From contig CAZGSG010000029.1 of NCBI GenBank assembly GCA_964528095.1, positions 1-28,677 of the forward strand: a DNA stretch of 28,677 nucleotides, given 5' to 3'. Position 1 is the stretch's first letter, and every line of letters starts with the position of its first letter. The translations under genes and the position numbers were made by a program. A model generated the notes under the pieces. The model was not told where the DNA came from and made no database searches. It saw only the letters and a program-made list of their open reading frames with translations. This document shows positions 2,726 through 4,333 of the stretch, in pieces. The stretch is from an uncultured Terrimonas sp. Its GTDB lineage: Bacteria; Bacteroidota; Bacteroidia; Chitinophagales; Chitinophagaceae.

Positions 2726-3802
2726 ATGAAAAATTTATTTGCGCCAAGACTGACTAATGCGGATAACCTGTTTGATGATCATTTTTTGGATGCTAAAGCC
2801 TTATATCTTCATTTCCATAGTGTGCTGCCAAACATGGATTACATTGGTCAGATAGATGGTGAAAAAGCATTTGAACTGATCAAAAGTCAATTCAGTCAGT
2901 CGATTGAGCATGTACATAGATACCGGTATTATAAACGGGACAAGAAAAAATACCAGTTTGGCAGAACAGTAATGGTTTTGAGAAACAAATGTATACTTGA
3001 ATTCGACGATTATTATTGCGAAATACTGCATGATGGAAAACAGGAGCAATTCGTCAGTGAATTAACAGGATTGATTGGCCAGTTCAAAATGACCAAAAAA
3101 AGAGAGCCGCTTGAGATCAACCTGGTAGTTCAGCATCGTGGCCATCTCGGTCTGAAGGCAATGGAAGTAAAACGGACAAAACTGGATTTTGATCTTTTTT
3201 ACGAAGATGATTTCACCGAGACCCGGCAACTGATCAATAAAAGATTGAACCAGAAAAACGATAAAGGCATTGTATTGCTCCATGGATTGCCTGGTACGGG
3301 TAAAACAACTTATCTGCGTTACCTGATAGGTAAGGTTAAAAAGCGGGTACTGTTTTTATCTCCCCTGGTAGCCGGAAACCTGATGAGCCCTGAGTTTATA
3401 GAACTGCTGACCGAAAATCCCAATACAATACTTGTAATTGAAGATGCGGAAAATATTATCGTGGACAGGGCGCACAATAGCAGCTCAGCAGTATCGAACC
3501 TGCTCAATATTTCAGATGGCCTGCTCTCAGATTTTCTGAATGTACAACTGGTATGCACGTTCAATAGTATGCTGACGATGGTAGATAGCGCATTATTGAG
3601 AAAAGGAAGACTGATCGCGCGGTATGAATTTGGAAAGCTGGGTATTGGAAAGTCACAACGACTCAGTGATCATCTTGGTTTTAAAACCATCATCAGCAAA
3701 CCAATGACCATCGCAGAAATAGCGAACCAGCATGAGAAAGATCAGAACGGACAAAAAATTGAAATAATCGGGTTCAGAAGGGAAACGGTTCTTCAGAATT
3801 AA
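2726..3802 (+). CDS. AAA+ ATPase, classical clade. Walker A is GLPGTGKT, Walker B is ILVIEDAE, and LLRKGRL is arginine-finger-like. The ~190 aa N-terminal domain is unknown.
   Basis: Motifs read from the translation. The gene starts 21 nt after tRNA-Phe. Confidence 0.7.
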   Translation: MKNLFAPRLTNADNLFDDHFLDAKALYLHFHSVLPNMDYIGQIDGEKAFELIKSQFSQSIEHVHRYRYYKRDKKKYQFGRTVMVLRNKCILEFDDYYCEILHDGKQEQFVSELTGLIGQFKMTKKREPLEINLVVQHRGHLGLKAMEVKRTKLDFDLFYEDDFTETRQLINKRLNQKNDKGIVLLHGLPGTGKTTYLRYLIGKVKKRVLFLSPLVAGNLMSPEFIELLTENPNTILVIEDAENIIVDRAHNSSSAVSNLLNISDGLLSDFLNVQLVCTFNSMLTMVDSALLRKGRLIARYEFGKLGIGKSQRLSDHLGFKTIISKPMTIAEIANQHEKDQNGQKIEIIGFRRETVLQN

Positions 3803-3823
3803 AACGAACAAAAAAGATGGACT

Positions 3824-4333
3824 ATGGAACAGCAACAATGGAGAAAATTGGATGGAACAAAGATCAGCCAACCGATTGAAACCGAGATCCGGCAAAGGAT
3901 CATTCGGGAAAAAGCAGCGGGCCACCAGTTAAAAGTATGTATCGGAACAGATAGCCAGGTAAAATCCGCTGCTGGAGGGAAAGGACCAAAATTGAAAGAA
4001 ACAGAATTTGCTACTGTAATCGTATTTATCAGGAAGGGCAAAGGAGGATTCATGTATATCCATAACGAGACAAGTTTGCAAAAGATGAGCATCAGGCAGC
4101 GGATGTTGACAGAAGTAGCTAAAAGTATAGAAGTGGCCTACGCATTATGCAGGATCTTCACGTTATATGATGTAGACATGGAGGTACATGCTGATATCAA
4201 CACCAATCCGGCATTTAAAAGCAACGATGCCCTTAAAGAGGCGATGGGTTATATAATGGGAATGGGGTTCGCCTTCAAGGCAAAGCCACATGCATTCGCC
4301 AGTTCAAGCTGCGCCAATAAGGTCGTCCAGTAG
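3824..4333 (+). CDS. Hypothetical protein, 169 aa, possibly an RNase H-like fold.
   Basis: It starts 19 nt after the ATPase gene, so the two are probably co-transcribed. The motifs GTDSQ, TEVAKSIE, LYDVD and NDALKEA can be aligned to the RNase HI catalytic D/E/D/D strands. This is a manual alignment, not verified. Confidence 0.55.
   Translation: MEQQQWRKLDGTKISQPIETEIRQRIIREKAAGHQLKVCIGTDSQVKSAAGGKGPKLKETEFATVIVFIRKGKGGFMYIHNETSLQKMSIRQRMLTEVAKSIEVAYALCRIFTLYDVDMEVHADINTNPAFKSNDALKEAMGYIMGMGFAFKAKPHAFASSSCANKVVQ

What the first reader, a model, noticed from the sequence alone, without database searches (positions are those of the whole stretch)
2726..4333. Tightly linked AAA+ ATPase and ~169 aa RNase-H-like protein: a candidate two-gene defence or RNA-targeting module
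The 358 aa protein carries a classical AAA+ core (GLPGTGKT, ILVIEDAE, LLRKGRL) behind an uncharacterised ~190 aa N-domain. The downstream ORF starts 19 nt later. It contains a GTDSQ motif and spaced acidic residues (TEVAK, LYDVD, NDALKEA) that can be aligned to RNase HI catalytic positions. An ATPase plus small nuclease pair next to a tRNA array, a WYL regulator and RtcB is the kind of context in which anti-phage or RNA-cleaving systems are found. The RNase H assignment is my manual alignment and could be wrong.
Basis: inference. Interest (0 to 1): 0.55.

Follow-up and report, generated by a model that had tools for sequence, protein, structure and literature searches.

The report
ATPase–nuclease pair in RNA-repair locus
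The two genes are real and do travel together, but as accessory parts of a larger conserved gene cluster (a tRNA gene array, a structured tRNA-like RNA, an SPFH scaffold protein and the RNA ligase RtcB) in Chitinophagaceae bacteria. They are not a stand-alone anti-phage system, and their biochemistry is untested.

Summary
Both ORFs exist as described. Two of its four proposed catalytic motifs are wrong. The 358-aa protein is a classical AAA ATPase of the Bcs1/YjoB type. It has Bcs1's unusual "ED" Walker B, is soluble, and lacks an aromatic pore loop. In Chitinophagaceae loci fetched with the ATPase, YkuK lies beside it on the same strand in 40 of 64, on either side. RtcB lies downstream in 54 of 63. 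The full layout is: tRNA array (up to 15 genes) > YkuK/AAA > ~330-nt structured tRNA-like RNA > SPFH > RtcB. YkuK presence tracks the tRNA array. YkuK homologues also sit inside or near tRNA arrays in several unrelated large phages. Neither protein matches a PADLOC model or any plasmid, and the loci are not defence islands. My best reading is that the pair belongs to a tRNA-damage/translational-stress repair locus. In that reading the ATPase is an RtcB-linked remodeller and YkuK a tRNA-linked nuclease. Both roles are inferred only. Distant ATPase relatives sit beside WYL regulators and other nucleases, never RtcB. Verdict: new variant of a known kind, moderate interest.

The parts
2726..3802 (+). 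Bcs1/YjoB-like classical AAA ATPase, 358 aa. It has a beta-rich N-domain (~1-175) and one AAA module. It is soluble and basic (pI 9.0).
3824..4333 (+). YkuK/DUF458-family RNase H-like protein, 169 aa. Predicted metal-dependent nuclease with D43, E97, D124 (+E120, H122; N165).
2454..2706 (+). tRNA-Gln(UUG), tRNA-His(GUG), tRNA-Phe(GAA). This is a short remnant of the tRNA array that precedes the module in relatives. It ends 19 nt before the ATPase start codon.
   Evidence: ARAGORN and Rfam. Arrays of up to 15 tRNAs lie at the same position in related loci, with Phe-GAA usually last.
2279..2351 (+). A fourth tRNA(-like) gene, anticodon UGG (Pro), missed by ARAGORN.
   Evidence: Rfam tRNA, 50.9 bits. 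It is 98.8 % identical to L042:5821-5902 at the head of that locus's array.
4330..4400 (.). Strong hairpin between the convergent YkuK and WYL genes. It is probably a bidirectional terminator ending the tRNA-AAA-YkuK transcription unit.
   Evidence: -44 kcal/mol, z=-7.2.
4397..5419 (-). WYL+WCX transcription regulator, the candidate sensor/regulator of the locus.
   Evidence: Pfam WYL and WCX. A WYL gene is adjacent in 7 of 80 Chitinophagaceae loci and beside distant ATPase relatives in 5 of 12 contexts.
5745..6075 (+). Conserved structured non-coding RNA with tRNA-like modules (two T-arm-like hairpins and D-arm-like segments), placed between the AAA/YkuK module and SPFH.
   Evidence: Conserved in about 39 loci. 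Consensus fold has 73 pairs, 49 with compensatory changes. Weak Rfam hits to YrlA (34 bits) and tRNA (32.1 bits). It co-occurs with SPFH: 27/32 against 0/22.
6320..7423 (+). SPFH/Band-7 protein, the presumed scaffold of the repair module.
   Evidence: Pfam Band_7, E=1.2e-26. Downstream of the ATPase in 37 of 63 loci.
7530..8987 (+). RtcB 3'-phosphate/5'-OH RNA ligase.
   Evidence: Pfam RtcB, E=1.1e-81. Downstream on the same strand in 54 of 63 loci, and directly abutting the ATPase in 13.
1397..1645 (+). Conserved upstream element: a Bacteroidetes-type promoter, a 30-codon ORF (1491-1583) and an intrinsic terminator (1613-1634). It may be a leader/attenuator of the tRNA-array operon.
   Evidence: Conserved in about 50 of 80 loci upstream of the array. 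Alignment and terminator stem. The function is inferred.

Best explanation
The ATPase and the YkuK nuclease are accessory genes of a conserved Chitinophagaceae locus that responds to tRNA/RNA damage (translational stress). They are not an autonomous defence system. The full locus reads: promoter/leader > tRNA array > YkuK and AAA (either order) > structured tRNA-like RNA > SPFH > (RlaP nucleotidyltransferases) > RtcB. Some genomes, including this one, add a WYL regulator. The proposed mechanism is inferred at every step. When tRNAs are cleaved or translation stalls, the array supplies replacement or decoy tRNAs. RtcB reseals broken tRNAs, helped by the SPFH/tRNA-like-RNA scaffold. The Bcs1/YjoB-like ATPase ring uses ATP to remodel RtcB or its ribonucleoprotein substrates, acting as an activase or chaperone. 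YkuK, a Mg-dependent RNase H-fold nuclease, acts on the array tRNAs or their precursors, either processing them or clearing damaged species. What is shown: gene content, family and fold membership, conserved catalytic residues, and the statistics of gene linkage. What is inferred: every biochemical role, co-transcription and the inducing signal.
For: The linkage is conserved while the surroundings change. At least 529 species-level genomes carry a relative, and the best 80 loci are all Chitinophagaceae-type. RtcB is downstream on the same strand in 54/63 loci and directly adjacent in 13. YkuK is on the same strand in 44/64 and adjacent in 40 (30 upstream, 10 downstream). The outer flanks fall into several different gene sets.

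Other neighbours are RNA-repair or damage genes: RlaP PF10127, 2H/LigT phosphoesterase, DinB_2, UmuD-like and radical SAM.

A same-strand tRNA array lies immediately upstream in most loci. YkuK presence tracks the array (31/6 against 3/14, Fisher p=5e-6).

There is independent support for a YkuK-tRNA link. YkuK homologues occur in 77 phage records, nearly all large genomes. They lie inside tRNA arrays in Ruegeria phage RpAliso and Leptolyngbya phage Lbo-JY46. They lie 1.4-1.5 kb from tRNAs in Pseudomonas phage Milchi and Cronobacter phage S13, where YkuK is directly beside a tRNA nucleotidyltransferase gene. In RpAliso YkuK is beside a peptidyl-tRNA hydrolase gene.

The catalytic D43/E97/D124 are invariant from bacteria to phages.

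Literature parallels exist. Cyanobacterial long tRNA arrays are silent, are induced by translational stress, and are co-regulated with or adjacent to rtcB (PMC8421152). The Anabaena TrcR regulon contains the tRNA array, rtcB, a slipin (SPFH) gene and an 'AAA family ATPase' (PMC10272220, Table 1).

Only 19 nt (tRNA-Phe to AAA) and 21 nt (AAA to YkuK) of unstructured spacer separate the genes, and a strong hairpin follows YkuK. This fits one transcript.
Against: All bacterial linkage data come from one family, so the counts are not phylogenetically independent. 20/64 loci lack YkuK, and 8/54 have the ATPase with none of the partners. Twelve sampled distant members of the ATPase family (34-49 % identity) are never next to RtcB, YkuK or tRNA arrays, so the RtcB link is clade-specific. 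From established enzymology, RNase H-fold nucleases leave 3'-OH/5'-P ends, which RtcB cannot join. YkuK is therefore unlikely to prepare ends for RtcB. Within Chitinophagaceae, YkuK also correlates with SPFH (p=5e-5), so the array link rests largely on the phage data. Three of nine sampled phage lineages have no tRNA within 5 kb. This window's array has only 3-4 tRNAs. There are no expression or biochemical data. The structure models are of moderate confidence (pLDDT 71 and 73).
Confidence: 0.55

Rival explanations
1. A stand-alone two-gene defence or abortive-infection module. The ATPase senses infection and licenses the YkuK nuclease to cut phage or host nucleic acid. RtcB and the tRNAs are merely neighbours.
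For: The architecture of an ATPase plus a small nuclease is typical of defence systems. Distant members of the same ATPase family lie in variable, nuclease-rich, WYL-containing islands. One is next to a type I restriction system (L084). One has a Uma2 nuclease directly downstream (L082). Others have PDDEXK_4 or DUF2779. Tandem ATPase paralogues occur.
Against: There is no significant PADLOC hit; the best is E=1.7e-4 over the P-loop only, and YkuK has none. There are no plasmid copies. Conservation is high and the position is fixed across more than 50 species-level genomes. Flanks are housekeeping or repair genes. YkuK is also carried by many large phages inside their tRNA regions, which suits a maintenance role more than a suicide effector.
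Confidence: 0.13
2. A component of a general nucleic-acid (DNA) damage response under WYL control. YkuK would remove RNA:DNA hybrids or process DNA ends, and the ATPase would remodel repair complexes. The tie to tRNA would be indirect.
For: WYL regulators neighbour the ATPase family in 5/12 distant contexts and in this window. OGG-like glycosylase, DUF2779 and PDDEXK nucleases recur beside distant relatives, and in one case canonical RNase H (PF00075) is directly upstream. UmuD/UmuC-like, DinB_2 and radical-SAM (DNA-repair-photolyase-like) genes flank many Chitinophagaceae loci. The Salmonella rtcBA operon is induced by DNA damage (PMC7790460). YkuK groups with RNase H1 in the published classification (PMC3985635).
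Against: The immediate conserved partners are RNA-centred: RtcB, RlaP, 2H phosphoesterase, the tRNA-like RNA and the tRNA array. Phage YkuK genes sit in tRNA arrays, next to the CCA-adding enzyme or peptidyl-tRNA hydrolase, not next to replication or repair genes.
Confidence: 0.15
3. YkuK is a selfish, homing-type DNA endonuclease that spreads or maintains tRNA arrays, as SegB or HNH genes do in phage and cyanobacterial arrays. The ATPase would be unrelated to it.
For: Homing endonucleases typically sit inside tRNA arrays (PMC8421152). HNH or homing endonuclease genes lie in the same phage arrays as YkuK. Long arrays spread horizontally.
Against: YkuK is under strong purifying selection (77-86 % identity). 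It keeps one conserved position next to the ATPase and is single-copy per locus. From background knowledge, the family is also widespread in bacteria without arrays (for example B. subtilis ykuK).
Confidence: 0.05
4. Inherited synteny without a functional tie: two unrelated genes that happen to lie near RtcB in one bacterial family.
For: All bacterial evidence comes from a single family. The wider ATPase family is not linked to RtcB or YkuK.
Against: Orthologues are only 58-70 % identical, and the outer flanks differ among loci. Adjacency survives inversion of gene order and insertion of other genes. Presence and absence of the modules co-vary. The independent YkuK-tRNA association in phages also argues against it.
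Confidence: 0.07

Closest known systems
YkuK / DUF458 family (Pfam PF04308, COG1978); predicted RNase H-like (Knizewski & Ginalski 2005; Majorek et al. 2014, PMC3985635, clade E with RNase H1)
   Same: The 169-aa protein is a full-length, single-domain member at 116 bits. It has the RNase H-like topology and conserved D-E-D carboxylates.
   Different: I found no characterised function for any family member. The links shown here to a Bcs1-like ATPase, RtcB clusters and tRNA arrays (bacterial and phage) are not mentioned in the papers I could read. The fourth active-site position is Asn here and Asp in the phage homologues.
Bcs1 (mitochondrial AAA translocase of folded Rieske protein) and B. subtilis YjoB (soluble AAA chaperone with an internal chamber, PMC9565160)
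   Same: A single classical AAA module sits behind a ~170-residue N-domain. These are the best sequence-profile and fold matches. The protein shares the 'ED' Walker B, the LLNxxDG motif, sensor-1 Asn and the SRH arginines, and it lacks a canonical aromatic pore loop.
   Different: There is no transmembrane anchor, unlike Bcs1. The N-domain shows no sequence similarity and only moderate-confidence fold similarity. An invariant C-terminal IGF motif is present. The genomic context is RNA repair rather than respiratory-complex assembly or the sigma-W regulon.
RtcB RNA-repair operons: E. coli rtcBA/RtcR, Salmonella rsr-yrlBA-rtcBA (Ro + Y-RNA with a tRNA-like domain), and the SPFH/Band-7 + tRNA-like RNA type proposed by Burroughs & Aravind 2016 (abstract recalled from memory; the paper was not readable here)
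   Same: RtcB occurs with a scaffold protein (SPFH), a structured RNA with tRNA-like modules, RlaP nucleotidyltransferases in sister loci, and a ligand-sensing regulator.
   Different: The regulator is a WYL protein, not the CARF-AAA+ RtcR. No RtcA, Ro or archease is seen in the locus. A Bcs1-like ATPase, a YkuK nuclease and a tRNA array are added.
Cyanobacterial long tRNA arrays (trn operon) and the TrcR translational-stress regulon (PMC8421152, PMC10272220)
   Same: A tRNA array is physically or regulatorily coupled to rtcB. The Anabaena regulon also holds a slipin (SPFH) gene and an AAA-family ATPase.
   Different: The phylum and the regulator differ. Here all parts are contiguous. Whether Anabaena all0263 belongs to the same ATPase family could not be tested. 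The arrays here are shorter (3-15 genes against 26-43).
PrfH-RtcB2 pair (ribosome rescue factor plus ligase, PMC9304027)
   Same: It is a two-gene unit in which a non-ligase partner prepares the damaged ribonucleoprotein so that RtcB can repair it. The minimal 'AAA > RtcB' loci look analogous.
   Different: The partner here is an ATPase, not a release-factor homologue. This is a functional analogy only.

Membership tests
YkuK/DUF458 (PF04308) | Match to the family HMM above the curated threshold over the full domain | tested here: met
   116.1 bits against a cut-off of 25, residues 30-167 on profile 12-143/145. Database relatives are named 'ribonuclease H-like YkuK family protein'.
YkuK/DUF458 (PF04308) | RNase H-like fold (b1-b2-b3-a1-b4-a...) | tested here: met
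YkuK/DUF458 (PF04308) | Conserved catalytic carboxylates (D in b1, E in a1, D after b4, fourth residue in the C-terminal helix) | tested here: met
   D43, E97 and D124 are invariant in bacterial and phage members. The fourth position is N165 here and D in phages. I could not measure the geometry in the model.
YkuK/DUF458 (PF04308) | Nuclease activity and substrate | not testable with these tools
   I found no biochemical data in the literature searches.
Classical AAA clade (PF00004) | Walker A, sensor-1 Asn, and second region of homology with two arginines | tested here: met
   GLPGTGKT, TFN280 and D287-x-A-x-x-R292-K-G-R295 are invariant across the family. The best PDB sequence hits are Afg2, Bcs1 and Rpt subunits.
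Classical AAA clade (PF00004) | Canonical Walker B hhhhDE and an aromatic pore-loop-1 | tested here: not met
   Walker B is IED (E239, D240), as in Bcs1's LLLEDID. The pore-loop position reads N-L-M against K-Y-L-G in Afg2. This suggests the protein is not a standard threading unfoldase.
Bcs1/YjoB-like AAA proteins | One AAA module preceded by a family-specific N-domain; closest in sequence profile and fold | tested here: met
Bcs1/YjoB-like AAA proteins | N-terminal membrane anchor (Bcs1); hexa- or heptameric ring with a chamber | tested here: not met
   No hydrophobic segment; the maximum Kyte-Doolittle 19-residue mean is 1.33. Oligomeric state is not testable here.
Known anti-phage defence systems (PADLOC-DB v2) | Significant match of the components to a defence-system model | tested here: not met
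   For the ATPase the best hit is TRIP13, E=1.7e-4, over 26 P-loop residues. YkuK has no hit.
RtcB-centred RNA-repair gene cluster | Conserved same-strand linkage to rtcB and other repair components across genomes | tested here: met
   RtcB in 54/63 loci, SPFH in 37/63, and RlaP, 2H and the tRNA-like RNA in sister loci.
RtcB-centred RNA-repair gene cluster | Co-expression or functional dependence on RtcB | not testable with these tools
   Only spacing and hairpins are available.
Long tRNA array (L-array) stress operons | A long same-strand tRNA array adjacent to RNA-processing or repair genes | tested here: inconclusive
   Relatives carry 5-15 tRNAs directly upstream. This window has only 3-4. 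Whether these are extra copies, or silent and inducible, was not testable.

The most novel reading that the evidence does not exclude
YkuK/DUF458, a 20-year-old 'domain of unknown function', would be a dedicated tRNA-array nuclease: a tRNA processing or quality-control enzyme shared by Bacteroidota and many tRNA-rich large phages. The Bcs1-like ATPase would be an ATP-driven RtcB activase, functionally replacing archease. Together with the tRNA array, the structured tRNA-like RNA, SPFH, RtcB and a leader-peptide/WYL control, they would form one integrated 'tRNA replenish-and-repair' island that counters anticodon nucleases.
Probability: 0.2. Interest if true: 0.75.

Novelty: new variant of a known kind. 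Interest (0 to 1): 0.55.

Why it matters
RtcB repair operons and stress-induced tRNA arrays are each known, but their accessory factors are largely unassigned. This locus places four uncharacterised elements in one conserved unit with RtcB: a DUF458 nuclease, a Bcs1-like ATPase, a ~330-nt tRNA-like RNA and an SPFH protein. It gives the first concrete, testable context for the YkuK family (tRNA arrays in bacteria and in large phages) and for a large Bacteroidota/jumbo-phage AAA family. If confirmed, it would show how cells and phages keep a tRNA pool working under attack by anticodon nucleases or translation inhibitors.

Tried and rejected

2. phmmer of YkuK against PDB found no solved relative.

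3. PADLOC and NCBIfam gave nothing specific for either protein.

4. Plasmid searches with YkuK and with the ATPase N-domain found no match.

5. Phage homologues of the ATPase (PA5oct, XacN1) have uninformative neighbourhoods.

Breadth had to come from 12 context look-ups of distant relatives, none of which was RtcB- or YkuK-linked.

7. Small genes next to distant ATPases (L096, L097) were tested for YkuK homology, with negative results.

8. Burroughs & Aravind 2016 (NAR gkw722, PMC5062991) could not be opened. I therefore cannot say whether they already listed this ATPase or YkuK in their Band-7/RtcB systems.

9. I could not confirm from PDB, NCBIfam or the literature that DUF2828, next to YkuK in KVP40-like phages, is Ro/TROVE-like.

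10. Homology of Anabaena all0263 to this ATPase could not be tested.

11. The sigma-70 promoter scan is uninformative for Bacteroidota: fewer hits than in shuffles.
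Full report
**Observation.** The window has ORF 2726..3802 (+, 358 aa) and ORF 3824..4333 (+, 169 aa). They are separated by 21 unstructured nucleotides. The first ORF starts 19 nt after tRNA-Phe, the last of three tRNA genes (Gln, His, Phe; 2454-2706). Rfam adds a fourth tRNA-like gene, anticodon UGG, at 2279-2351. Downstream lie a convergent WYL+WCX regulator (4397..5419), about 900 nt of non-coding DNA, an SPFH/Band-7 gene (6320..7423) and RtcB (7530..8987).

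**Is the pair conserved?** A scan of one genome per species found at least 529 relatives of the ATPase. The best 80 loci are all Chitinophagaceae-type. I searched them with the window proteins and clustered their ORFs. Of 64 loci with at least 1.5 kb on both sides, YkuK is present in 44, always on the same strand. It is within 400 nt in 40: upstream in 30 and downstream in 10. Of 63 loci with at least 6 kb downstream, RtcB follows on the same strand in 54 and directly abuts the ATPase in 13. SPFH lies between them in 37. The outer flanks differ among loci. Genes inserted within or beside the cluster are RlaP nucleotidyltransferases, a 2H/LigT phosphoesterase, DinB_2, UmuD-like and radical-SAM proteins. 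The pair is therefore real and recurrent. However, the stronger and more general partner of the ATPase is RtcB.

**tRNA arrays and a structured RNA.** Rfam and ARAGORN show a same-strand tRNA array of up to 15 genes immediately upstream of the YkuK/AAA module in most loci. Phe-GAA is usually last. Lys-UUU, Asn, Arg-ACG, Gln-UUG, His, Asp, Ile and Glu-UUC are the commonest members. From background knowledge, these are largely the tRNA species cleaved by known anticodon nucleases; this point is an inference. Between the module and SPFH lies a ~330-nt conserved non-coding element (window 5745-6075). Its consensus structure has 73 pairs, 49 with compensatory changes. It contains T-arm- and D-arm-like modules and gives weak Rfam hits to YrlA and tRNA. 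Among 54 loci with long flanks, this RNA is found with SPFH in 27/32 and without SPFH in 0/22. YkuK co-occurs with an array of at least 3 tRNAs (31/6 against 3/14; p=5e-6). RtcB is present in 46/54. These tests are not corrected for phylogeny. The cluster is thus modular. Its core is AAA>RtcB. One add-on is the tRNA array with YkuK, and the other is the ncRNA with SPFH.

**Independent evidence from phages.** YkuK homologues occur in 77 phage records, almost all with genomes of 125-735 kb, and in no plasmid. In Ruegeria phage RpAliso and Leptolyngbya phage Lbo-JY46 the gene lies inside a tRNA array of about 20 genes. In RpAliso it sits right after a peptidyl-tRNA hydrolase gene. In Cronobacter phage S13 it directly precedes a tRNA nucleotidyltransferase gene, with a tRNA 1.5 kb away. 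In Pseudomonas phage Milchi tRNAs start 1.4 kb away. In KVP40-like Vibrio phages it follows a DUF2828 'RNA-binding protein' and lies 4.6-6.3 kb from the array. Three other lineages show no tRNA within 5 kb. This recurrent association across unrelated phages, in the absence of the ATPase, SPFH and RtcB, points to a tRNA-related role for YkuK.

**The wider ATPase family.** Twelve contexts of relatives at 34-49 % identity, all Bacteroidota where named, never include RtcB, YkuK or tRNA arrays. WYL regulators are neighbours in five of them. Nucleases recur: Uma2 directly downstream, canonical RNase_H directly upstream, DUF2779 twice and PDDEXK_4 three times. OGG-like proteins occur twice and tandem ATPase copies twice. 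One Cytophagales clade sits beside rplM-rpsI-rpsB-tsf. Homologues also exist in jumbo phages, with uninformative neighbours. So the ATPase scaffold is used in several stress or conflict contexts, and its coupling to RtcB is specific to the Chitinophagaceae clade.

**Defence system?** Neither protein has a significant PADLOC match. The loci are not in restriction, CRISPR or Abi islands. Conservation is high. The rest of this window is ordinary chromosome: an ECF sigma factor, hydrolases and a polysaccharide export cluster. I therefore rate the stand-alone defence reading as unlikely, though not excluded.

**Comparison with the known.** RtcB operons with a scaffold protein and a tRNA-like RNA are known: Salmonella rsr-yrlBA-rtcBA (PMC7790460), and the SPFH/Band-7 plus tRNA-like RNA type of Burroughs & Aravind 2016. 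I could not open that 2016 paper and cite its abstract from memory only. Long tRNA arrays that are induced by translational stress and co-regulated with rtcB are known in cyanobacteria (PMC8421152). The Anabaena TrcR regulon lists the array, rtcB, a slipin and an AAA-family ATPase together (PMC10272220). What I did not find described is a Bcs1-like ATPase and a YkuK nuclease as conserved members of such a locus, or the YkuK-tRNA-array association.

**Mechanism (inferred).** Damage to tRNAs or stalled translation induces the locus. The array supplies spare or decoy tRNAs. RtcB, with SPFH and the tRNA-like RNA, reseals broken tRNAs. The ATPase remodels RtcB or its RNP substrates. YkuK cuts array transcripts or damaged tRNAs. 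From established enzymology, RNase H-fold enzymes leave 3'-OH/5'-P ends that RtcB cannot join, so YkuK is more likely a processing or clearance nuclease than an end-healing enzyme. I put about 0.8 on the contextual claim that the pair is part of the RtcB/tRNA-array locus. I put about 0.3 on the specific roles.

**Verdict.** This is a new variant of a known kind of system. It is of moderate interest, mainly because it gives testable functions for two large uncharacterised families.

Noticed in passing
window 5745-6075 (+): A ~330-nt conserved, strongly covarying structured RNA with two T-arm-like hairpins (GGTTCRAnTCC at 5892 and 5956) and D-arm-like segments. There is no Rfam family for it, only weak YrlA and tRNA hits. 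It is found with SPFH in 27/32 loci and never without SPFH (0/22). It is probably the 'tRNA-like molecule' tied to Band-7 repair modules in the literature.
   Followed up: partly
window 1397-1645 (+): An element conserved in about 50 of 80 related loci upstream of the tRNA array. It comprises a Bacteroidetes-type promoter (TTTG-N20-cAtcTTTG), a conserved 30-codon ORF (1491-1583, MTRIQLHIKNANWFSPKGDYTMSGAGAAVE) and an intrinsic terminator (1613-1634 plus a T-run). It could be a leader peptide/attenuator that senses translation stress, or a small protein gene.
   Followed up: partly
window 2279-2351 (+): A tRNA-like gene (Rfam 50.9 bits, anticodon UGG) that ARAGORN does not call. It is 98.8 % identical to the sequence at the head of the array in L042.
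   Followed up: partly
window 5510-5690 (+): A segment with a third T-arm-like motif (5677). In L033 and L038 the homologous segment lies just upstream of the tRNA array rather than next to a WYL gene. It may be a degenerate tRNA or a second small RNA, and it hints at rearrangement in this genome.
   Followed up: no
window 8983-9076 and 4330-4400: A nearly perfect ~38-bp hairpin lies right after RtcB (-66 kcal/mol, z=-10.6). A second strong hairpin lies between the convergent YkuK and WYL genes (-44 kcal/mol, z=-7.2). Both are terminator-like or palindromic repeat elements, and both gave spurious miRNA hits in Rfam.
   Followed up: partly
window 1907-1931 and 2156-2177 (+): Two more terminator-like hairpins lie in the ~1-kb ORF-free stretch before the tRNAs. 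They are conserved in 16 and 23 related loci respectively. Their function is unknown.
   Followed up: no
L082-L084, L097, L098, L101, L102 (distant ATPase relatives): The same Bcs1-like ATPase family recurs in Bacteroidota beside WYL regulators and assorted nucleases (Uma2, RNase_H, DUF2779, PDDEXK_4), OGG-like proteins and tandem ATPase copies. This looks like an undescribed WYL-controlled stress or conflict module family.
   Followed up: partly
L085 4455-6462; L092 8462-10462 (KVP40-like Vibrio phages): In these phages YkuK is always directly downstream of a DUF2828+DUF7788 protein annotated as 'RNA-binding protein'. I recall this protein as Ro/TROVE-like but could not verify that here.
   Followed up: partly
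window 2726-3802, residues 348-350; alignment A3: An invariant C-terminal I-G-F motif runs across the whole ATPase family, bacterial and phage (PHROG 14322 covers it). It may be a docking tail, by analogy with the HbYX motifs of proteasomal ATPases.
   Followed up: no
L021 (CALRSN020000037.1): A contig labelled 'Bordetella parapertussis' MAG carries a typical Chitinophagaceae YkuK-AAA-SPFH-RtcB cluster. This is probably a mis-binned or mislabelled record.
   Followed up: no
window 15098-18922 (+): A NusG/UpxY-like regulator followed by Wza- and Wzc-like genes begins a capsular polysaccharide locus. This is ordinary Bacteroidota chromosome and unrelated to the finding.
   Followed up: no
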